Source of the DNA: Naegleria gruberi
Taxonomy: Eukaryota
Strand: one strand, 5' to 3'
Assembly: GCA_000004985.1 (NCBI GenBank)
Contig: GG738859.1
Length of the DNA stretch: 64,000 nt
The notes beneath the pieces are model-generated. The model made no database searches and was not told the origin of the DNA. It was given only the letters and a program-made list of their open reading frames with translations. Positions within the stretch are counted from its first letter, which is position 1; every line of letters starts with the position of its first letter. Position numbers and translations under genes: made by a program. Positions 1 to 64,000 of this stretch are shown here, in pieces.

Positions 1-91
1 AGTCAACAAGTAGTAGTAGTAGTTAATAATAGTATATACACTCTTTATCACTCTCATCAATCACACACAAATACATATAAAAAGAGAGTAA

Positions 92-3000
92 ATGTCATCA
101 AAAAGATCTAATTTATTACTCTCTAAAGATTATCAAAGTAAAAAATCATCAAAACAAACAACAAATCAAAATAATGATGATGATGAAAATCTAACACAAG
201 AAGATAAAATTAATAGAAGAGTACAAAGTGTATTAAAAACACTTCCATCTAAAAAGGATGAAAATTTAATTAAATTTAAATCATTCTATGAATGTATTAA
301 AGATGTTAAAATACTTTCGGAAGTACAATTTGATACTTATAGAAAAGAAGAATCAAAGAATGAACATGATTCAACTACTTTTTTATATGATAAAATGTTA
401 GAATGGGATGAATTGAATTTAACTGTATGTTATTTATATTCTCAATATTTAATTTATAATTTACAATAATAATAGAAACATTATATTCAATTTAGATCAA
501 ATATTCAATCATTTGTTAGAACATTACCTGAAATGATACATCACAAAGAAACTATTTGTGATATTTTTGTTAATCATTTAAGAATTAAGGATTCTCTTGC
601 TTATCAACCTATTTTAGAGTAAGTAGTAGTTTTTATTTTTCATTACAATAATATTAAATATTCATTACAATAATATTAAATATTTAAAAAAACAGTCTAG
701 TAACAATATTTGCTAAAGATTTACGACAAGAATTTTATCCATTATTTCCACGTTTATTTTATCCAATAGTATATAATATAAGTTCTGATAATATAGAATT
801 GAATGGATTAATATTTAAAAGTTTAGCATTTTTATTTAAATATTTACAAAAATATATTATTAAAGATATATCATTATGGTTTGAAAAGTATAGTAAAATA
901 CTTTCACATAAGAAATGGTATATTAGAAAATTTGCAGCTGAAAGTTTTTCATTTTTAATTAACAAACTTTCAGATGAAGAATTAAAAATTTATGTTGAAA
1001 AAGTTTTTAATTTATTAATTGAAAAACCATCACAAATAATGTATGATGGTGTTAGTCAAATGTTTTTTGAATCAATGAAAGGTATTTTAGGTAATTTACA
1101 TTCTAAAATGTCAAGATTATTACCTTTATTATTTAGACAATTAAATTGGAATTTAAATTATAATGGTACTATTAAACAACAATTAGCTGATATTGGTAAC
1201 AAATTTACTTTAATTGAAAAATGTTTAATTTTATTAAGAGATTATTCTAAAAATAAGTTAATTGCTAAACAAATTTGGGATTTATTTGTTATTGAAATTA
1301 AATTTTTAATTAATTCTATTAATTTAAATAATAATAATAATAATAATCAAATTAAATATTAATAATAATTTAAATAATATTAAAAATAATTTAAATAATA
1401 TTAAAAATTTAAATAATTTAAATAATAATGAATATTTAAATATTCAAATAGGATATTTTATACAATTAATTAGAACATTTAATACTATTGAAAAATATAA
1501 TGAAGAATCAATTTATTTAATTTTAAATTTATTAAATAGTAAAAATCTATTAATAGAATTTAATGCTCAATCATCACAAGCATTATTTTCATTTATTTCT
1601 GATATAATTGAAACATTACAAAGATCAGATATAATTGAAAATGTTAATAATTTATTATTTAATTGTTTTTATATTAAAGATAAACAAACAGTTTATACTT
1701 TTTATAGAAAATTAATGAAAACAATTGGAAATGAACAAGAATCAAATACAATTGTTAAAGAATTTTTAAGATTTGTTAATGATGATATTAATTATAATTT
1801 TGATTCAACTGTTGCTTTTTTATTAAATTTTATTCATACTAATACTACTAGTAATAGTAATTTAGATACAAATTTGGAATATACTTTATTATCTGATAAA
1901 AATTCTAAATTTATTCAAATTATTTATAACAAATTTATTGAAATTATTTCAAATATTAAATCACAACAAGATTTAATTCAATTTTCAAAACAATCAAATT
2001 CTTTATTATTATTATGGTCTATTTTAAATATTTTATCTATTTATGGTAAAAAATCAGATCAATATTTAAAAAATTTATATGAAAATGTTTATAAATTTTT
2101 ATTACAATTTATTAAATTAATTGATCAAAGTCAATATGAAAAGAAGGAATTACAATTATTACAAATTATTATTGCACAATCTTTAACTTTATTAAATCAA
2201 GTTTTACATTTCTATAATAAGAATTTTAATAATTTAATTGAAATTGTTATGGAAATTTCATGTAAATTTGGTTCATCATTACAAGTTTTAATTTCATGTA
2301 ATCAATTAATTGATAATGTAGAGTAGGTTTTTATTTTAATTTTTAATTTTAATTTTATTTAATTTTAATTTAATTTTAATTTTTAATTTTAAATAGTTCC
2401 AATTTATTAACAAATGATAAATTTAAAATAATTGCAGAATCATTAAAATCCAATCTTCAAAGTAAATCTGATAATCTAAGATTAGAAACATTAAAATATT
2501 TAACTAAATTTGAACAAGATGAAATTCAAAAAGGAATTGTTCTTAATAAGGTAGAAACTACTAAATGTGTAGTTTTAGAATTTTTAAGAGATTCAGAAGA
2601 ATGTGGATTTGATTGGGATCAATCACGTAATCGTACAGTTTTATTAGAAAAGGCTAATGAATTTTTAAAACGTTACACCATTCCACAAATTTACAAAACT
2701 TTAATTTCTAATTATGTATTTGGTTCATATTTTACAAAATATCAAATTGTATGGGAACCAACAAGTAATTTAGCATCAACAATGATGAGAATTAATTTTA
2801 AAGAATTTTGGAATTTATTAATACCAATTATTTCAAATATTTATCAAAAATGTAAGTTTTTTTTAATTTTATTTAATATTTTAATTTAATTTTAATTAAT
2901 AATATAATTTAATATTTAATATTTTTAATAATATAATAATATAATAACAAATCAGATGGAGAATATAAAAAAACACATTATAAATCAATGATTTATAAAT

Positions 3001-6000
3001 CTAAAAAAAGAGATGAAGAAACTAGTTTAAATTTTGAATCATTTTCTAAACAAGTTAAAAAAATAGAAAAGATTTCAGATATAGAAACTATATTTTTAAA
3101 AATTATTAAAGATGTTTCTAAACAACATACAGATTATTCAACATATTTAGATATGATATTTAATATATTTATAAATGGAGCAAGAGATTCTAAAAAAGAA
3201 GATGATATATTATTAGTATTTAATTCCTTTTATGAAAATGAATTTAAAGAATATGATATTGAAGAAGTTGTTAATTTTATTACTAGAAATCCAATGACTG
3301 GTCGTTTAGAAAAATTATTAAATTTAATTTCAGAATTTAATGAAGATTTCTTTAAAAAGGAAAAATCTAAATTTATCAAATCAGTTATTTTTAGATTATT
3401 TTCAACTTCAACAATATCAATTCAATTATTATCTTTAAAATGTTTACAAAAGTTTAATTTACCATATTTAACAAGTAAAACTGTTAAAAATTTACAAAAA
3501 GTAATTTCATCTAATAGAAGTGTTGAACATTTATCTAAATTAGATTTTATTAATATTCCAAAACAATATAAACAAGAATATATTCATTTACATTTAAAGG
3601 TTATTGAACCTTATTTATTAATGTTTGATATGACTAAAAAGAGAGGTAAAAATTCTAAAGATGCAATGATTAAAAAATGGAAAATTAGAGTTCATCAAGT
3701 TATTGAATTTTTAGGTCAATTACCAAAAGAAACACTTGAATATTTTATTAACATGTTATTTAATAGATTTAAATCTATTGATAATAATAATGGTAATGAT
3801 AGTAATATTGATAGTAATATTGAGAGTACAAATACTAATAATAGTGATGGTAAATTTGCTGAAGATTTAATCAAGGCAAATACATTCCAGTTACGTTGGT
3901 TATTAGATATTATTGAAGAAATTTTAACATGTTTAACTGGAAATTATCATTACTTTTATAATCAAGTATTGGATTTATTAATTACTATTATTGAATTGAG
4001 AGTTGATGCTCATGAAATGGAAGTTGATCAAGAAGAAGAAGAACAAAAATTACTTGAACAACAATTACTTGAACAAGAAGAAGAAGAAGAAGAAGATGAT
4101 GAACAAGATGAATCATCCACTATTAAAGATTCTGATAGTAAATCATCTGAAAAATCAGACAAGATGACTGATGAAGTTGATGATGAAGATGATGACCAAG
4201 ATGATGATGATGATGAATCTACTGCTACTTCTATTCAAACTACTTCTACTACTAAATCAACTATTGCTAAATCTACTACTTCTACCACAACTACAACAAC
4301 TGATAATAATACTAGCTACTACTGTTAATAAGAAACCAATTATTAGACAATATTATAAACCAGCATCATCTAAACAAAAAGTATCATTAACATTAACATT
4401 TAAAAGAGCAGTTGAATTACTTGAATTATTCTTTGATAGAAAACAAGAATTTGATTATAGTATTGAATTTACATCACACGTAATTTCATTATTTACAAAA
4501 TTCTTTGAAAATATTAATAAGAAATCATCAAGAATTGAAGAATTACCTTCTTACTTTTCAATTTTATTTTCATGGTTTGATAAACCTAAACTTTATTATT
4601 TAATTAAATATTATGAAAAGGAATTAATATTTAAATTTATTGAATTAATTGATCAATATAATGTTTCTAATGTTGTATTTGATCAAGTTTTATCTATTTT
4701 TGATAAAATATTATCAAATAAGGATGAAATTTTTATGAATTTAAATCCAAACTTTTCAAAAATTACAACAGATATTGAAAATGGTTTAACTATTGGTATG
4801 AAAATATTTGAACCTTCAATTATTAATCAAATTTTAATTGCATTTTATAATTTATTTATTGAATCTAATTATTCATCTAAATCTATTAATAATAATAATA
4901 ATAATAATAATTATAAATCTAAAAATAATAGTTATAATAATAATAATAATAATAATAATAATTTAAACAAATTAAATGATGAATTAAATGAACAATCAAA
5001 TGAAAAACAAGAATTTTCTAAAAAATGTTTTAAATTAATTGATAAAATGAAAGGTTATTTTGATGAAACATCACCTGCTGATATTATTTTAACCTTTTAT
5101 GGAACATCAATTAGAGATGGATCTTCTTTAAATGAAGATGAAGCACGTGTTTTATTACATTTATTTAAAAAATATTTACCATATTCAAGTGAATCTATTA
5201 AAACATTATATATTATACATTTTTCTAAAATGTTTATTTATAATAATGAAACTATATTTAGAAATCAAATTTGTGATATAATTGAAAAATTAGCAATTGG
5301 ATTTAATAATGAAAAATTAAAATTTACATCTAAAATTATTAATGGATTAAATGCACAAATTGAATCACATTTAACAAATTTAGATACATCATCTAGAATT
5401 GAAATATTTAAAGAATTAAATTCAAATTTAAATATAATTTCAAATTTAAATGAAATTGAATTATTTCCAATTATAGGTAATTTAATATTCTTTTTAGGAC
5501 ATAAAGAATGGATATTACGTGATTCATCTTCACAATCATTATTAAATATTATTGAAATTATTAAATTTAATAATGAAATGAAAGAAATTAAAAGATTATT
5601 AATTTTACATGTTAAAAGATTATCATTTTCAGATAAATTATTAGAAAAGAGTGAATCAATGTTAGTTTATTCTAAAATGATTGATCAATTTATTGAATTG
5701 GAAAATTTAAAACCATTTTCAAAATCATTAGAATTAATTTCAAATGTTAATTATCAAAAGAAATTAGAAGGTTTACAAATTATTAATTCTATTTTAATTC
5801 CAATTGAAAAATGTAAAATTCAACAAGATTATATTTATCAAATTGTACCTCCACTCATTTATGAATTAATGGTAATTAATGATAAATCTATTCAAGATTT
5901 AGTTAAACAATTATGTATTTATTTAGTAACTGTTTTAGATTGGAATTATTCACATCCAATTTTAAATCAATTAGTTACAATGATGGGTACATATGGTTTA

Positions 6001-9000
6001 AAGGTTTTATCAAAGAGAAAGAAATTAGCATTGGATATTATATGTCAAATTGTTGATGTATTTCCATTTGATAAAATTAATGATCATGGTTTTAATAGTA
6101 GTTATAGTTATAATAATAGAAATGATAATAATAGATATAATAATAGAAGACATGAATCAGAAGAACCATTATCAAATAGTACAGTTACTATTGAAAAGGA
6201 TACTACAAATGATGATGATGATAATGATGCAGACGACAATGAAATGATTGATGAAAATGAAATTCCAAAAGGTAGAAGAATGAAGAGATATTTCATGAAA
6301 GATTTCATTCCAAAAGTAACAAAATTCCTTTGGGATAAGAAATTAGAAATTTATGTCATGCGTATGCAAGTTTGTTTCTTAATTATTAAAGTATTAAGAA
6401 GATGTGATAAAACACAATTAGATGTACATTTATCTAAAATGGTATTAGATGTATTAGGTAAATTAAAGAGTAAAGATGAAGAACAACAACAAGTTGCTGG
6501 TAAAGCATTAATTGACATGTTTAAAGAATTGGGAAGTTCATATTGAAAGTAATGTCATCAGATCACAAAACTACTCACATTATTACACAAGCTGTACATT
6601 CAGTCATGTTAATTTTATTGAATGAAAATACATATCCACCTTTAAAAACATTTAAAAAGAGAAAAGTTTCACGTTTTGATATTGAAAAGGCACAAGATTA
6701 TGAAAATCAATCATCAATAGGTGAAAATTCAGTTTCATTAACTGCATCTGATAGTTCTTCATCAAAACATTTCAAATCAAAACATGAAAATACTTTATTT
6801 AATTGTTTTGAATTATTAGGTTCAATTATTGATATTAAGAAGAGTTTATCATATATTATTAATGATATTAATTTCAAAATTAGAATTGTACATAATGCTG
6901 AAATTTTAAAGAGATTTGAATTTGTATTTAAATTTTTATTGAAAGGTTTAATGAGAAATAGACAAGTTATTCAATCTAATCAATCTATTACTAATACTAT
7001 TACTAATAATACTACTACTAAACAATCTAATCAATCTAATAATAATAGTGAAATGTTATTAAATGTAATTAAAAATGAATTATATCATTATAGATTATAT
7101 AAAAAGAATTTTACAACAATAACAGATGGAGAACAAGATAGATTTCATTCTGTTAAAACTACTAAAGATAGAAAGGAAGAAAATTTCCTTGTACAAAAAG
7201 AACCAGGTAGACTTGGTGCAATTGATCAAGCTAATGATATGAAAATGAAATTATTAGCAGGATTAATTGATAATTCACATATTATTGTACAATTTTATTT
7301 AAAAATGTTTGAAAAATGTATTAAAAGATTTAAAATTCAAGTAGATAAACATTTAGAAATGATGAATGAAATAATACCATTATTATTAAAATATGTTAGT
7401 GGTAATCATTTAAATGTAGCATTGGTTTCATTTAGAATTTTAATTGAAATTTGTAAACGTACACCTAAAGTATTTAAAATATTAGAAGATTCTAAACAAT
7501 TATTATTAAATTCTACATTTGATATATTAACAAATTCAGGTATTGATTCTACAAATTTAGAAACATGGGAAACTATATATACAGGTATTAAATATTTTTT
7601 ACAATCTGATATTTCACATAAATATCCATTATCATTAGGACAATTAGATATTTTATTAGATATGTTAAAAATTGAAATTTCATCAACTAGAAAAACCTAT
7701 TCAATTCAAACATTTCAAATTTTATCAAATTTAATTGATAATAAGGTACAAATACCACAAATTTATGATTTAATGGATAAATCAATTACAATTATGTTAA
7801 CTACACTTGAAATGGAAATACAAAAAACTATAGTTGAAATGTTGGTTAATTTTTATTTAAATTATCCATTTACAAATGAAGTATTACAAGACAAGTTAAA
7901 TTATTTATTTAAAAATGTTTTAAATGAAAATATGTCAAATGAATCTAAATTATCAATTTTAAATTTAATTCAAACTATAATTAAAAAATTTCCAAATAAT
8001 TTCCTAAATGATAAAACTGAATTAATTTATTATCCTCTAATTTTAGAATTAGAAAAACAATGTAAAAAACGTGTTATTGCAGGTGATAACAAATCAATTT
8101 CATCAATTGTTTCAAAATTAAGAGAAACTTTACAATTTTTTATTAAAATATTAAATGATGAAAATTTAATTAAAATTATTAAAATTACAAATGATTGGAT
8201 TTTAAATGAAAAGAAATTAAAACCAATTGGAGTTAATTCTATTTTAATTTTATCAAATGTATCAAATGGTAGTAAATTAAAATCATCATCAGAATTTTAT
8301 GAAAATATGATACCTCAATTAATTTCTATAATTGAAAATTCAGATACAAATTTAGAAAAATATCCAAGTTTAGTATTAGAAACATTGGAATGTTTTTATT
8401 CATTATTTTCACAATCTATTATTTCATTCCAACATGTTGATGAAATTTGGAATTCCTTATTAAAAATAATTTGTGATGAAAATGATTTGAGAAGTGAAAT
8501 TAGATTAGAATCTTTGAAAATCTTTGAATTATTTGTTTCTAAAAAGAAGAAGAATGAATCTAAAATTTTAAATCATTTACAATATTTAGAACAAATGTCA
8601 ATTTCAATTATAGAATTATTTAAATCACAATATATTAATGATACAAATGTAATTGTAATTGTTAAAGTTTTAATTTATTTATTTAAATTATTAGATTCTA
8701 ATAATGGAAGTGAAATTTTACATAAATTATTTAAATCTTTACGTAAAATTTCAAATCAAACATTTGATTTTGACACCAATGAAAATATTACATTTAGAAG
8801 AATGAATATTTTAAAGTTATTTATAGGTTTAGCTTCTAAATATGGTAATCAATTACAACCTTATTTAATTTACATGACACCATTAATTTATAGATGTTGT
8901 GAATTTTCAAATAGAGATAAATCAATTGTAACAATTGAATTGGAGAAATTTGCTAAAGAATCTAAACAATTAATTCAACAATCATTAACAGATTCAAATT

Positions 9001-9242
9001 TATTTGTTCAAGCTTATGAAGAAGGTAGAAAATTAGTTGAAAGTAAAAGTGAAAAGAAATCAAAATCTAAAGAACAATCAATCATATCAAAACCATCACA
9101 ATATGCTAAAAAGAGATTGGAATCAAATTCTAAAAAGAATGATACTAAAAAGAGAAAGTTAAAAGAATCTTTTAATCAACCAACTGTACAAATATCATCA
9201 TCTGGTAATGTACAACAAGTTAAAAAGAAGAAGAAGAAGTAA
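92..9242 (+). CDS. UTP20: UTP20 (small-subunit processome component 20 / DRIM) homolog. Multi-exon gene: E1 92..424, E2 476..618, E3 696..2322, E4 2397..2851, E5 2956..9242.
   Basis: Strong matches to UTP20 N-terminal blocks: WDELNLT|KHYIQF (human WRELNLTEHFGKF), DSLAYQPILDLV (NSFAYQPLLDLV), KDISLWFEKYSKILSHKKWYIRKFAAESFSFLINKLSD (KDMSSIYSMYSTLLAHKKLHIRNFAAESFTFLMRKVSD). Lys-rich C-terminus. Introns with GTATGT/GTAAGT/GTAGGT donors at 425..475, 619..695, 2323..2396, 2852..2955 restore frame. Three further frame breaks (about 1328-1359, 4290-4325, 6525-6543) are not explained by canonical introns. Confidence 0.8.
4886..4966 (+). repeat. (AAT)n coding microsatellite (poly-Asn tract) inside UTP20. 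Representative of many such tracts in this window.
   Basis: Perfect aat repeats read directly in the sequence. They translate to NNNNNNNN in the gene frame. Confidence 0.7.
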
Positions 9243-9412
9243 TTTAATTTAATTGATTTGGAAATTGAATTGATTTGAATTATATAATAAAATAAATATT
9301 ATTTAAAATGTTATTGGTGAATATTGTGAATTCATATATGACATGTATTGATAGAGAGAGATGATTCTCATTGTCATTTTGAAACATTTGGTAGTTATCA
9401 TGATTAATTAAA

Positions 9413-11662
9413 ATGTTAAATTTGCTTGTACAAACTTCCAATACCAATACTACTAGTCAACAACAACATGAACAACAACATGAACATTCTCATCATAATG
9501 GAACATGTTCTGCACCTATTAATATTGTGAATAATCAATCATCATCATCATCATCCTATTTAACAACAAATCATTCACCATCACATTCACTAGTTGTGAA
9601 TTTAAATGAAAATCATACCATTAATACATTAAATCATCATCATCATCACTCTAATAATATCAATAATAATATAAATAGCAATCAACATCATTCTACCAGT
9701 ACCAGCACTAGTAATATTAATAGTAATAGTTTAAATAATCAAAATATTGAAAATAAATTAAAAAAGAAAAAGAAAGAAGAAACATGTCAAAAACAATCCA
9801 CCACTATTAATAGTAATAATAATAGTATTATTAATAGAAATCATCGTATTTCAAATAATTCATCATTATTTCCTAATAATACTACTAATACTCATAATAA
9901 TACTACTACTCATAATAATACGAATACTCATAATAATAATACGAATACTAAAAAATCCAATCATTCTAATATAGCTTGGAATGGAAAAGTAAATCATACA
10001 AATATATCAAATAGTAATATGACTATTAATAATACATTATCAAATAATAATACAAATAACAATAATAGTAATGGTAATAGAGAGAGTAATAATAGTAATA
10101 TATCATCAACCATTCATCATCACAATCATCATACTCATCACCATAATCATCACAATCACCACAATAGTAACCATAATTATCAGAGTTTACCACCTCAATC
10201 AAGTACAAATGCTTTTTCATCTTCCTATCAACAACAACAACATAGTTTTTATTCCGAAAAAAGTTTTAACAATTCATCTTCTTCATCATCAACATCAAAT
10301 AGTACATTAAATAATTCAAATAATAATAATAATATGGGCAGTACTACAAATAATCATCATCATCACCATCAACATCATCATCGAAATAATACTAATAATA
10401 ATAATAGTATGAATAAGAATGGTAAACAAAGAATGAATCATCAATCCAATAATAATAATAGTAATAATAATAATAACAATGAAAATAATTCATCATTTAA
10501 AAGAATGAAAAATAATAATTTATATGAATTATTATTAATATGTAAAAGTAGAACAATTATTAATGATCAATTTAATATTTCTTTACCTGATACAAATATA
10601 TATAGCTTTTTTAAACATGTAACACCTAAATATAGTAGTTATGAAAATCAAGAATTATTAAATAATTATAAATTAAAAGATTTATGGAATTTTTATGATG
10701 AACCATATGGTGTTGGTATTCCAATTAAATTACCAAAACATTCAAATAGAGAGAGTGTTTATTTTGTACCACATTTAAGTGCAATTAAATTAGTTGCTAC
10801 TAATATTAATACTACTACTACTACTAGTAGCAGTACATTAATTAATAATATTAATAATATTACTGAATCAACAACTGAATCAATAACATCTAATAGTAGT
10901 TCTAATAGTAGTAGTAATAATAATGTGACTTGTAATACTTGTAATAATCAACAACAACAACAATTGAATGATCAAGCAGCTGATGAAAATTCAGATAAAA
11001 TTTTATTTGAATTTTATGAAACAGTTACACCTGATTTGAGATATCCATTCATTGATAAAATGGAAGAATTATCTAAGGATTGTCCATTCTTAATGGAAGG
11101 TACAATTAGTGAATTAAATTTAGATAAGAGTTGGTTTTCAATTGCATGGTATCCAATTTTATGTCATAATCATACAATGAATTGGTTAAAAGGACAAATG
11201 ATTACCTATCACAAATTATCACCATCCTATCATGCTATTGATACAAGCTTTTTATCTTGTGTTAAACCTAAAAATGAATTTGATGAATTAATTAATGAAA
11301 AGAAATTATCAGCAAATTTGAATATTAATAATAATAATAGCAGTAATAGTAGTAGTACATCAACATCACCAGCTTTATCAAATATTCAATATTATTCACC
11401 TATTATTGGATTCTTACCTTACAAATTAAGAAATGAAACTTGGTTTTATGATTTTAAGAGAGGAAATAATCAATTAACAGCACCACTTTATTTATTACAA
11501 TCTTGTCATAGATTACAACGATTCTCCAATCCAAATACTATGCATCCTGATTACCATCATTGTTTGAAAAATAGTCCAGAATTAGGTCTCATTCCACATT
11601 TCCATCAATCCTCAAACAATAACCATCACAACAATAATGGTAATAACTCAATAAAAGAATAG
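9413..11662 (+). CDS. DUF789-domain protein with His/Asn/Ser-rich low-complexity N-terminal half
   Basis: C-terminal block ILFEFYETVTPDLRYPFIDKMEELS...DKSWFSIAWYPI matches the plant DUF789 signature (xxFEYFExxxPYxRxPLxDKI ... SWxSVAWYPIYRIP). Single 749-aa ORF. Poly-His runs HHHHHS and HHHNHHTHHHNHHNHHNSNHN. Confidence 0.7.
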   Translation: MLNLLVQTSNTNTTSQQQHEQQHEHSHHNGTCSAPINIVNNQSSSSSSYLTTNHSPSHSLVVNLNENHTINTLNHHHHHSNNINNNINSNQHHSTSTSTSNINSNSLNNQNIENKLKKKKKEETCQKQSTTINSNNNSIINRNHRISNNSSLFPNNTTNTHNNTTTHNNTNTHNNNTNTKKSNHSNIAWNGKVNHTNISNSNMTINNTLSNNNTNNNNSNGNRESNNSNISSTIHHHNHHTHHHNHHNHHNSNHNYQSLPPQSSTNAFSSSYQQQQHSFYSEKSFNNSSSSSSTSNSTLNNSNNNNNMGSTTNNHHHHHQHHHRNNTNNNNSMNKNGKQRMNHQSNNNNSNNNNNNENNSSFKRMKNNNLYELLLICKSRTIINDQFNISLPDTNIYSFFKHVTPKYSSYENQELLNNYKLKDLWNFYDEPYGVGIPIKLPKHSNRESVYFVPHLSAIKLVATNINTTTTTSSSTLINNINNITESTTESITSNSSSNSSSNNNVTCNTCNNQQQQQLNDQAADENSDKILFEFYETVTPDLRYPFIDKMEELSKDCPFLMEGTISELNLDKSWFSIAWYPILCHNHTMNWLKGQMITYHKLSPSYHAIDTSFLSCVKPKNEFDELINEKKLSANLNINNNNSSNSSSTSTSPALSNIQYYSPIIGFLPYKLRNETWFYDFKRGNNQLTAPLYLLQSCHRLQRFSNPNTMHPDYHHCLKNSPELGLIPHFHQSSNNNHHNNNGNNSIKE

Positions 11663-44221: not shown

Positions 44222-44308
44222 CCGATGATAGCTCAGCTGGTAGAGCATGGGACTGTAGCAAGAAAAACTGTCATCCTGTGGTCGGCGGTTCGATTCCGTC
44301 TCATCGGA
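44222..44308 (+). tRNA. tRNA-Tyr (anticodon GTA) with an intron of about 13-14 nt immediately 3' of the anticodon
   Basis: Acceptor stem CCGATGA/TCATCGG. D-arm and A box TAGCTCAGCTGGTAGAGC. Anticodon loop CTGTAG. T-arm and B box GGCGGTTCGATTCCGTC. Discriminator A. Confidence 0.8.
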
Positions 44309-62101: not shown

Positions 62102-63596
62102 ATGGGCTTTTTCACTAAAAAAAAGGATAAATCACCAGCCTACGATGCTGATGCAATCAAGTGCGAAATTTCTGGGCCAACCGACTTTAAAAGGGGAGTG
62201 CATATTGAAGTTGACCTCAACCAAGGTACTTTGAAAGGTGTACCAACACAATGGAAAGATACATTTGGAGATAGTGCTCAATATGATGAAAATTCTGCTG
62301 TGAATCCAAATCTCTTACCTACAATGAGCTCATCTCAAGATAATGTTCAAGGATTTGTTATTTCAAAACCATTCGAATTCAAACATAATATTCACGTTGA
62401 CTATAACAGTGAGGTAGGTTTTATTATTATTTTGACAGTTGGTTGACTAATTTCAAATAGACCGGTTTCGTTGGTCTTCCACCAGAATGGGAAACCATGC
62501 TTAAAACATCTGGTATCACAAAAGATGAAGCTGTTCAAAATCAAGATGCTGTTTTGGGTATTTTGGACTTGGCAACTAATAATATGCAAAGACCAGATGA
62601 AGCAGCTGCTAAACAAAAACCAATTGGCGGTAAGAAACAACGTCTTGTTGAATATCTCCAAAATGAAGACCCAACTAAAGTATTTGGTAAACTCCAAAGA
62701 CTTGATGAAGGTTCTTCTGCCGTTGTTTACAAGGGTATTCACAACAAGACTGGTATGAAAGTTGCCATCAAGATTATACAGATTAAAGCTGACACCAAGT
62801 TAGAAACATTAGAAAACGAAATTGCAATGATGCACTCTTGTCAACATGAAAATATTGTAAAATACGTAGGAGCATACTCACACAATCAAGATTTGTGGAT
62901 TGTCATGGAAATGATGAGTGGTGGTAAACTCACAGATTTGTTATTGAGCACTCAATTCTCTGAACCAGAAATTGCTGCTGTTTGTAAGGAAATTTTGAAA
63001 TCACTCAAGTACCTCCACGATAATCAAAGAATTCACCGTGATATCAAATCAGATAACGTACTTCTTGGAGAAAATGGTGATGTCAAATTGGCTGACTTTG
63101 GTTTCTGTGCTGAATTATCCCAAACTGCTGATAAGAGACGATCAGTCGTTGGTACTCCATACTGGATGGTAAGTTTTCTTGTTTTAATTCAATTTTAAAT
63201 TTACAATTTTATTATAGGCACCTGTAAGTTTAGTTTTTCAATTTTATTTATTTAAATATTATTATTTAGGAAGTTATTCGTGGAGTTGATTATGACACCA
63301 AGGTTGACATTTGGTCTTTGGGTATTATGGCTTTGGAAATGGCTGATGGTGAACCACCATTGCTTGACTTGCCACCATTGAGAGCTTTGTTCATTATTGC
63401 CACTCAACCACCTCCAACTTTGAGAGAACCAGAGAAGTGGTCAAATGTCTTTAAGGACTTTTTGGCTTGTGCTCTTGCTAAGAATCCTCAAAAGAGAGCC
63501 TCAGCTGATGATCTTTTGAACCATCCATTCATTCAAAAGGCTACTGATACTAAGTTCCTTGTTGAACTCATTAAGAAGTATAAGTTGAAGAAATAA
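62102..63596 (+). CDS. PAK: p21-activated kinase (PAK/STE20 family) with an N-terminal CRIB motif. Exons 62102..62413, 62461..63168, 63218..63223 (6-nt micro-exon), 63270..63596.
   Basis: CRIB ISGPTDFKRGVHIEVD. Kinase motifs VAIK, HRDIKSDNVLL, DFG, GTPYWM|AP|EVIRG. The GTAGGT and GTAAGT introns restore frame. The 'gcacct' micro-exon is flanked by ...ttatag and gtaagt. Confidence 0.8.
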
Positions 63597-63896: not shown

Positions 63897-64000
63897 ATGA
63901 GCCATGATGACAATTCAAATGCTGTCGATACACAACAACAGAACGATCATCAAAATCTTCCAACCACAACAATAACAAACGACGAAAATAACAATTTTGA
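63897..64000 (+). CDS. 5' end of a further gene (truncated by the window edge)
   Basis: aaaaaaATGagccatgatgac... Open to the end of the window (MSHDDNSNAVDTQQQNDHQNLPTTTITNDENNNF). Confidence 0.3.
   Translation, partial: MSHDDNSNAVDTQQQNDHQNLPTTTITNDENNNF

What the first reader, a model, noticed from the sequence alone, without database searches (positions are those of the whole stretch)
63169..63269. 6-nt micro-exon (gcacct, Ala-Pro) inside the conserved kinase APE motif of the PAK gene
The kinase subdomain VIII motif GTPYWMAPEV is split as ...YWM | AP | EVIRG. Intron 63169..63217 (GTAAGT...TTATAG), exon gcacct at 63218..63223, and intron 63224..63269 (GTAAGT...ATTTAG). Skipping the micro-exon would delete AP but keep the frame. 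Reading through either intron hits stops. Micro-exons this small are rare and need special splicing recognition. The placement in a catalytic motif is striking.
Basis: seen in the sequence. Interest (0 to 1): 0.55.

Follow-up and report, generated by a model that had tools for sequence, protein, structure and literature searches.

The report
Six-base exon in Naegleria PAK kinase
A real 6-base exon (Ala-Pro of the kinase "APE" motif) sits between two ordinary short introns in a PAK kinase gene of the amoeba Naegleria gruberi (not a slime mould), public gene models miss it, and relatives carry an apparent 3-base version; it is a tidy example of a known phenomenon, not a new one.

Summary
The sequence is exactly as described: ATG|GTAAGT…TATAG (63169-63217, 49 nt) | GCACCT (63218-63223) | GTAAGT…TTTAG (63224-63269, 46 nt) | GAAGTT. 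Splicing both introns gives a 450-aa PBD+kinase protein with GTPYWMAPEVIRG intact.

The organism is Naegleria gruberi (Heterolobosea), not a dictyostelid. The reference model XP_002678953.1 is identical apart from this site, where it reads YWM-VSFL-EVIRG, and it lacks the N-terminal 145 residues.

Intron-free transcript assemblies from close relatives (94% and 86% nt identity) lack exactly the three predicted introns and carry GCACCT. No same-strain transcript was available.

N. fowleri, N. lovaniensis and a N. lovaniensis paralogue have the same intron pair. There intron 1 sits one codon further 3', leaving a 3-nt exon CCT. All four gene models there are wrong at this site.

Willaertia, Acrasis and an environmental heterolobosean have only intron 1. 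One environmental Naegleria-like contig has neither intron.

The most likely mechanism is constitutive, sequential removal of two independently defined short introns. I found no sign of regulated skipping or of a special RNA structure.

Verdict: real, a new member of a known kind (ultra-short micro-exons, commonly misannotated); interest is moderate to low.

The parts
62102..62413 (+). PAK exon 1 (ATG to ...DYNSE; first CRIB-like motif and start of the PBD)
   Evidence: ORF and splice model. Transcripts L006/L001 are collinear with it. The reference N. gruberi model omits this exon, since P0121 starts at Met146.
62414..62460 (+). Intron 0 (47 nt, GTAGGT...AAATAG, phase 0)
   Evidence: Missing as one 47-nt gap from transcripts L006 and L001; the aligner placed that gap 2 nt upstream of my GT...AG boundaries. 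An intron at the same position (DYNSE|GT...) is present in L002, L003, L004, L005 and L007.
62461..63168 (+). PAK exon 2 (PBD remainder, kinase subdomains I-VIII up to GTPYWM)
63169..63217 (+). Intron 1 (49 nt, GTAAGTTT...TTATAG, phase 0, between Met and Ala of WMAPE). This is an old heterolobosean intron position.
   Evidence: An intron at the same M|A position is found in Willaertia magna L003, an environmental heterolobosean L008 and Acrasis kona L091.
63218..63223 (+). 6-nt micro-exon GCACCT = Ala-Pro of the APE motif
   Evidence: GCACCT is present between the flanking exons in the spliced transcripts L006 and L001. AP is present in every full-length homologue whose ORF runs uninterrupted through the site (one has SP).
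63224..63269 (+). Intron 2 (46 nt, GTAAGTTT...ATTTAG, phase 0, between Pro and Glu). Among the loci sampled it is found only in Naegleria.
   Evidence: Present at P|E in N. lovaniensis L002, N. fowleri L007 and the N. lovaniensis paralogue L004. Absent in Willaertia, Acrasis, L008 and L005.
63270..63596 (+). PAK exon 4 (EVIRG... to stop TAA; kinase subdomains VIII-XI)

Best explanation
A constitutive 6-nt coding micro-exon (GCACCT, Ala-Pro of the APE motif) lies in a group-I-like PAK gene of Naegleria gruberi.

Origin (inferred from seven genomic loci): an old phase-0 intron between Met and Ala is shared with Willaertia and Acrasis. It was joined in the Naegleria lineage by a second phase-0 intron between Pro and Glu, stranding two codons between them.

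Mechanism (inferred, not shown): both introns are ordinary short introns (46-49 nt, GTAAGTTT...TAG). Each is recognised on its own by intron definition. An exon this short is thought unable to hold spliceosomes on both flanking introns at once (PMC8831610, PMC4674806), so the two are probably removed one after the other. After either one is removed, the other is flanked by normal-length exons. The mature mRNA encodes an intact activation-segment/P+1 region, GTPYWMAPEVIRG.

In the N. fowleri/N. lovaniensis lineage intron 1 sits one codon further 3' (ATGGCT|GT...AG|CCT|GT...), so the micro-exon there is only 3 nt (Pro).
For: Shown directly:
- The sequence and the only parse that gives an open, complete kinase.
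- PBD and Pkinase domains, and alignment to human PAK2/PAK1 across ...vGTPYWMAPEV....
- Among 129 fetched homologues, the only sequences deviating from WM[AS]PE are Naegleria genome gene models and read-through ORFs of genomic contigs.
- Transcript contigs L006 (SRR17423265) and L001 (ERR2815266) have one uninterrupted 1353-nt ORF. L006 aligns to my in-silico spliced CDS with 0 gaps at 94.2% identity. Relative to the genome, both lack exactly 47-, 49- and 46-nt segments and keep GCACCT.
- 67 synonymous against 7 non-synonymous codon differences versus L006 indicate purifying selection.
- The intron pair recurs with canonical GTAAGT/AG sites in N. lovaniensis, N. fowleri and a N. lovaniensis paralogue.
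- Other candidate introns in the window have the same size range and the same GTAAGTTT 5' consensus.

From the literature: sequential removal of the introns flanking ultra-short exons is the accepted model (PMC4674806; PMC8831610).
Against: - No transcript from the same strain was available; the exact 450-aa protein is not in the collection.
- The supporting transcripts come from relatives whose genomic intron content is unknown, and one environmental Naegleria-like genome lacks both introns (L005). The transcripts therefore prove that AP is in the orthologous mRNA, not that this particular pre-mRNA is spliced this way.
- The order of intron removal, and whether inclusion is complete, are untested.
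- There is no transcript evidence at all for the 3-nt exon of N. fowleri/N. lovaniensis.
Confidence: 0.9

Rival explanations
1. Regulated (alternative) micro-exon. The 6 nt are sometimes skipped, producing an in-frame delta-AP isoform with a damaged APE/P+1 region, that is, a kinase-impaired or dominant-negative PAK used as a switch. This would resemble animal neuronal micro-exons.
For: Skipping preserves the frame. The N. fowleri model and one N. lovaniensis paralogue model are annotated with the micro-exon skipped (YWMAEVIRG), but these are predictions, not transcripts.
Against: All three full-length transcript-derived proteins of the N. gruberi group (P0001, P0122, P0123) contain AP. No protein with WMEVIRG appears among the 129 fetched homologues. 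Both splice-site pairs are strong consensus sites. In the RNA-seq survey that included N. gruberi, intron retention exceeded exon skipping in all but one species (PMC6142364).
Confidence: 0.06
2. The reference annotation is right. There is a single intron 63181-63269 and the protein reads YWM-VSFL-EVIRG (XP_002678953.1).
For: It is the deposited model. It uses a GT...AG pair and keeps the frame.
Against: It replaces the near-invariant AP with VSFL. Its donor CTT|GTTTTA lacks the local GTAAGT consensus. It ignores two perfect GTAAGTTT donors. Transcripts of close relatives have GCACCT and not the VSFL codons. The same model also lacks the PBD-encoding 5' exons.
Confidence: 0.01
3. Decaying locus or pseudogene. 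The AG-GCACCT-GT arrangement is a relic and the gene makes no functional kinase.
For: None beyond the broken public models.
Against: The full-length ORF is intact after splicing. There is a strong excess of synonymous change against a close relative (67:7). All catalytic motifs are intact. Orthologues are expressed in relatives.
Confidence: 0.02

Closest known systems
Ultra-short constitutive coding micro-exons of plants (1-15 nt; e.g. the 9-nt AP2 and invertase exons and the 1-nt APC11 exon)
   Same: An internal coding exon of a few nucleotides, flanked by canonical introns, encoding residues inside a conserved domain motif. Conserved across species, constitutively included, routinely missed or mis-modelled by genome annotation. 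Proposed to be handled by intron definition with one flanking intron removed after the other (PMC8831610, PMC4674806).
   Different: The lineage is different (Heterolobosea, Discoba). The flanking introns are extremely short (46-56 nt in the orthologues). The exon size differs between congeners (6 nt against 3 nt) because one intron sits a codon apart. No RNA-level proof exists in the same strain.
Animal neuronal micro-exons (3-27 nt, alternatively spliced; PRP-40/PRPF40A-dependent in C. elegans and mouse cells)
   Same: Multiple-of-three length, frame-preserving, and altering a functional protein surface (PMC8378409, PMC11648925).
   Different: Those are regulated, tissue-specific, sit in long introns and depend on dedicated enhancers and factors. 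Here there is no evidence of skipping, and the introns are minimal.
Recursive splicing / zero-length exons (AG|GTAAGT ratchet points in Drosophila long introns)
   Same: A 3' splice site followed almost immediately by a 5' splice site, implying stepwise removal of two intron segments (bioRxiv 10.1101/290007).
   Different: Here 6 nt (or 3 nt) stay in the mRNA and are coding. The introns are tiny rather than very long.
Group I p21-activated kinases (human PAK1-3, Dictyostelium PakA-C)
   Same: N-terminal CRIB/PBD plus C-terminal STE20-type kinase domain. About 1e-91 to human PAK2, aligned through both domains including GTPYWMAPEV.
   Different: Short (450 aa), with an extra CRIB-like motif near the N-terminus. 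GTPase binding and regulation are untested.

Membership tests
Coding micro-exon (internal exon of 15 nt or less) | Bounded by a 3' splice site (AG) upstream and a 5' splice site (GT) downstream, each belonging to a plausible intron | tested here: met
   TATAG|GCACCT|GTAAGT. The introns are 49 and 46 nt with GTAAGTTT donors, like other candidate introns in the window.
Coding micro-exon (internal exon of 15 nt or less) | The exon sequence is present in mature mRNA between the two neighbouring exons | tested here: inconclusive
   Met in transcripts of close relatives: L006 at 94% nt identity and L001 at 86% both carry GCACCT and lack the 49- and 46-nt segments. No transcript of the same strain was retrievable.
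Coding micro-exon (internal exon of 15 nt or less) | Inclusion is needed to restore the conserved protein sequence and reading frame | tested here: met
   Only inclusion gives WMAPE. AP is found in all homologues whose ORF runs uninterrupted through the site (one has SP). Retention of either intron truncates the protein.
Coding micro-exon (internal exon of 15 nt or less) | Conserved in position in related genomes | tested here: met
   The intron pair is present in N. fowleri, N. lovaniensis and a paralogue, but with a 3-nt exon (CCT) because intron 1 lies one codon 3'.
Alternatively spliced (regulated) micro-exon | A skipped isoform exists alongside the included one | tested here: not met
   No WMEVIRG-type protein among 129 homologues or transcript-derived proteins.
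Recursive splice site (zero-length exon) | AG directly abutting GTAAGT, with nothing retained | tested here: not met
   6 nt (N. gruberi) or 3 nt (N. fowleri/N. lovaniensis) lie between AG and GT and are coding.
p21-activated kinase (PAK, STE20 group) | N-terminal p21-binding (CRIB/PBD) domain | tested here: met
   PF00786 at E = 2.4e-26, residues 87-140, plus a second weaker stretch. Aligned to the human PAK2 PBD.
p21-activated kinase (PAK, STE20 group) | C-terminal Ser/Thr kinase domain with intact HRD, DFG and APE motifs and PAK-type activation loop (GTPYWMAPE) | tested here: met
   PF00069 at E = 1e-69. HRDIKSDN, DFG and GTPYWMAPEV are present in the spliced model. Best solved relatives are PAK2/PAK1 at 1e-91 to 1e-83.
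p21-activated kinase (PAK, STE20 group) | Activation by GTP-bound Rac/Cdc42 | not testable with these tools
   Requires biochemistry.

The most novel reading that the evidence does not exclude
The Naegleria APE-site intron pair records a true one-codon intron slide. Intron 1 is at M|A in N. gruberi, Willaertia and Acrasis, but at A|P in N. fowleri, N. lovaniensis and a paralogue. This would yield a constitutive 3-nt coding exon in the human pathogen N. fowleri, one of the shortest constitutive exons proposed. In addition, inclusion of the micro-exon could be tunable, giving a kinase-impaired delta-AP or delta-P PAK isoform during the amoeba-flagellate transition.
Probability: 0.12. Interest if true: 0.6.

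Novelty: new member of a known kind. Interest (0 to 1): 0.38.

Why it matters
1. Annotation. It corrects five public gene models in three Naegleria species, including the pathogen N. fowleri. Each model mangles the APE motif of a PAK kinase: VSFL in place of AP, loss of Pro, or other damage just after AP. Anyone reading those models would call these kinases degenerate or pseudokinases. The N. gruberi model also lacks its GTPase-binding domain.

2. Lineage. It shows that ultra-short micro-exons, and their systematic misannotation documented in plants, also occur in a discoban protist with very short introns. This fits the view that intron-defined splicing puts little lower limit on exon size.

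3. Evolution. The set of loci captures four states of one site: one intron, two introns 6 nt apart, two introns 3 nt apart, and none. That makes it a compact natural series for studying intron gain next to an existing intron, one-codon intron displacement, and joint loss of adjacent introns.

None of this changes the concept of micro-exons.

Tried and rejected
- Dictyostelid origin: rejected. The best hits are Naegleria and Willaertia, and the N. gruberi reference protein is identical outside the site.
- Same-strain transcript: the exact protein is not in the collection. A second homologue search with the C-terminal 204 aa found no 100% identical fragment. A literature look-up of the run accessions ERR2815266 and SRR17423265 found nothing, so the source species of those runs are unknown.
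- Metagenome scan for more genomic examples: it returned 80 loci, but the three closest relatives (L011, L012, L043) run uninterrupted through the site and are short contigs, apparently transcript-derived or intron-less. It added no new intron states.
- N. gruberi paralogue P0136: it belongs to the paralogue group without an intron at this site, and its locus could not be fetched.
- Origin of intron 2 by duplication or transposition of intron 1: similarity between the two introns is not consistently above shuffles (z = 1.6, 3.1, 0.0 and -0.9 at four loci). The shared starts are just the 5' splice-site consensus. A simple tandem-duplication model would also predict a duplicated AP, which is not seen.
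- Special RNA structure bridging the two introns: none (MFE z = -0.89).
- Literature search for Naegleria plus microexon: the two hits are irrelevant.

Full report
**1. Observation**

The window reads ...ACTCCATACTGGATG | GTAAGTTTTCTTGTTTTAATTCAATTTTAAATTTACAATTTTATTATAG | GCACCT | GTAAGTTTAGTTTTTCAATTTTATTTATTTAAATATTATTATTTAG | GAAGTTATTCGTGGA...

A third intron lies upstream at 62414-62460 (47 nt, GTAGGT...AATAG). With it, the exons 62102-62413, 62461-63168, 63218-63223 and 63270-63596 join into a 1353-nt ORF. The product is 450 aa and contains ...KRRSVVGTPYWMAPEVIRGVDYD....

- Retaining intron 1 terminates translation inside the intron (YWMVSFLVLIQF*).
- Retaining intron 2 shifts the frame, and translation stops 22 nt into the last exon.
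- Skipping the 6 nt is in frame and gives YWMEVIRG.

The pattern AG-GCN-CCN-GT occurs once in the whole window on both strands, at this site. Its expectation inside a 101-nt stretch of this AT-rich composition is about 1e-6.

**2. What the gene and organism are**

Pfam finds a p21-binding domain (PF00786, E = 2.4e-26) and a protein kinase domain (PF00069, E = 1e-69). The best solved relatives are human PAK2 and PAK1 (E = 1e-91 to 1e-83). They align over both the PBD and the kinase domain, including vGTPYWMAPEV. So 'PAK' is right.

'Dictyostelid' is wrong. The nearest database proteins are from Naegleria and Willaertia. The N. gruberi reference protein XP_002678953.1 / NAEGRDRAFT_32381 (P0121, 307 aa) is identical to my model over its whole length except at this site. 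The window is therefore N. gruberi, from the reference strain or a near-identical one.

That reference model reads GTPYWM-VSFL-EVIRG. It runs 12 nt into intron 1 and uses a weak donor at 63181 (CTT|GTTTTA) with the acceptor at 63269. It also starts at Met146, so it lacks the PBD.

**3. Is the micro-exon used?**

Two Logan contigs from RNA runs each carry one uninterrupted 1353-nt ORF: L006 from SRR17423265 and L001 from ERR2815266.

- L006 aligns to my in-silico spliced CDS over all 1353 nt with no gap, at 94.2% identity. L001 is 86% identical.
- Aligned against the genomic sequence, both transcripts lack exactly three segments of 47, 49 and 46 nt. These coincide with the three predicted introns.
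- Both carry GCACCT between ...TGGATG and GAAGTT....
- Codon differences between the window and L006 are 67 synonymous to 7 non-synonymous, so the gene is under purifying selection.
- Among 129 homologues fetched, all transcript-derived or intron-free sequences have WMAPE (one has WMSPE). The only deviants are Naegleria genome gene models and ORFs that read into introns of genomic contigs.

The caveat is that I could not obtain a transcript from the same strain. The exact protein is absent from the collection, and a second search with the C-terminal 204 aa found no identical fragment. One environmental Naegleria-like genome lacks both introns (below). So transcript contiguity in relatives proves the mRNA content of the orthologue, not the splicing of this exact pre-mRNA. 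Given the unique parse and the selection evidence, I rate inclusion of the micro-exon at about 0.9.

**4. Comparative anatomy of the site (genomic loci)**

| Organism (locus) | Structure at the site |
|---|---|
| N. gruberi (window) | ATG \| i1 49 nt \| GCACCT \| i2 46 nt \| GAA |
| N. lovaniensis (L002) | ATGGCT \| i1 47 nt \| CCT \| i2 56 nt \| GAA |
| N. fowleri (L007) | ATGGCT \| i1 51 nt \| CCT \| i2 50 nt \| GAA |
| N. lovaniensis divergent paralogue (L004) | ATGGCA \| i1 80 nt \| CCT \| i2 63 nt \| GAA |
| Willaertia magna (L003) | ATG \| i1 \| GCTCCTGAA, no second intron |
| Acrasis kona (L091) | ATG \| i1 36 nt \| GCTCCTGAA, no second intron |
| Environmental heterolobosean (L008) | ATG \| i1 \| GCTCCTGAG, no second intron |
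| Environmental Naegleria-like contig (L005) | TGGATGGCTCCTGAAGTC, neither intron |
| More distant paralogues (L009, L010) | no intron at the site |

L005 (JGI 3300002220) is 93-95% identical at the protein level to the Naegleria orthologues. It retains intron 0, so it is genomic DNA.

The most parsimonious reading is as follows. The M|A intron is old within Heterolobosea. The P|E intron was gained in the Naegleria lineage, 6 nt downstream of the existing one, which created the micro-exon. N. gruberi keeps that original state. In the fowleri/lovaniensis lineage intron 1 now sits one codon further 3', leaving a 3-nt exon (Pro). One lineage lost both neighbouring introns together, as expected for cDNA-mediated loss.

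The paralogue's history is unresolved. It is either a recent fast-evolving duplicate or an older copy, and the distance tree does not settle this.

The 3-nt exon rests only on canonical GTAAGT/AG sites and the need for Pro. I found no transcript for it.

All four public models at these loci are wrong at the site:
- N. fowleri XP_044569861.1: YWMAEVIRG.
- N. lovaniensis XP_044547441.1: YWMAPVSIMALE.
- N. lovaniensis paralogue XP_044541789.1: YWMAEVIRG.
- N. lovaniensis paralogue XP_044548727.1: YWMAPVIIRG.

**5. Mechanism**

Other ORF-joining candidate introns in the window are 36-104 nt. They mostly begin GTAAGTTT and end ATAG. Introns 1 and 2 are therefore typical for this genome, and their shared GTAAGTTT start is simply the consensus.

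There is no consistent sequence similarity between intron 1 and intron 2 across the four loci (z = 1.6, 3.1, 0.0, -0.9). An origin of intron 2 by copying intron 1 is not supported. The pre-mRNA region has no exceptional secondary structure (z = -0.89).

I therefore infer ordinary intron-definition splicing of two independent short introns. An exon this short is thought unable to carry spliceosomes on both flanking introns at the same time, so the two introns are presumably removed sequentially. After either is removed, the remaining one has normal exon context (...TGGATGGCACCT|GTAAGT, or TATAG|GCACCTGAAGTT...). This is the model proposed for plant micro-exons of 1-15 nt (PMC4674806; PMC8831610). 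It is an inference here; neither the order nor the efficiency of removal was tested.

**6. Relation to what is known**

Micro-exons of this size are known. Before 2015 the smallest constitutive exon on record was 6 nt and the smallest alternative one 3 nt. A 1-nt constitutive exon was then shown in Arabidopsis APC11 (PMC4674806). A plant survey found 2,398 exons of 15 nt or less, often inside conserved domain motifs (kinase domains in Chlamydomonas), and mostly unannotated (PMC8831610).

Full-text search found no paper connecting Naegleria with micro-exons. N. gruberi RNA-seq exists (PRJEB23822; PMC6142364) and could settle the matter.

This locus is thus a new member of a known kind, with two mildly unusual features: the very short flanking introns, and the 6-nt versus 3-nt difference between congeners.

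**7. Verdict**

- Its interpretation is correct on gene structure and gene family.
- It is wrong on taxon.
- It overstates the need for special recognition.

The useful outputs are a corrected 450-aa gene model, five misannotated public models, and a small evolutionary series of intron states at one codon pair. Interest is moderate to low (0.38).

Noticed in passing
window 62102-62460 (and P0121): The N. gruberi reference model XP_002678953.1 starts at Met146 of my model. It therefore lacks exon 1, intron 0 and the whole PBD/CRIB region. The locus encodes a 450-aa protein with an extra CRIB-like motif (ISGPTDFKRGVHIEVD) near the N-terminus in addition to the main PBD.
   Followed up: partly
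L007 ~3130-3280; L002 ~4153-4300; L004 ~3312-3500: N. fowleri, N. lovaniensis and a divergent N. lovaniensis paralogue have an apparent 3-nt exon CCT (Pro) between two GTAAGT...AG introns. Intron 1 is displaced by exactly one codon relative to N. gruberi, Willaertia and Acrasis. All four public gene models at these loci are wrong at this point. No transcript evidence was found.
   Followed up: partly
L005 981-1050 and 1738-1770 (JGI metagenome 3300002220): An environmental Naegleria-like genomic contig keeps intron 0 (DYNSE|GTAAGT...TTACAG) but has neither APE-site intron. This looks like a joint loss of two adjacent introns.
   Followed up: partly
P0133 (JGI contig, 7059 nt): A more distant PAK homologue ORF reads GTPYW-YFYSLIIR-MAPEVIRG. 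This 24-nt in-frame insertion between W and M may be a tiny unspliced intron at a neighbouring position in another protist.
   Followed up: no
window 44222-44308 (+): Rfam finds a tRNA (54.8 bits, 87 nt) that ARAGORN, run in its bacterial mode, did not report. It is possibly an intron-containing eukaryotic tRNA gene.
   Followed up: no
window 1-10000: GC content is only 18-22% over the first ~10 kb, against about 30-35% in the rest of the window. The cause was not examined (gene-poor, repeat-rich or subtelomeric region?).
   Followed up: no
L009 ~3460-3480: The third N. lovaniensis PAK paralogue has no intron at the APE site. It does have one ending just upstream (…TTTACAG|GTTGGAACTCCT, before VGTPYWM), so intron positions around the activation segment differ among paralogues.
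   Followed up: no
window 63898-64000 (+): Another ORF begins about 300 nt downstream of the PAK stop (ATGAGCCATGATGAC..., Asn/Gln/Thr-rich) and runs off the window end.
   Followed up: no
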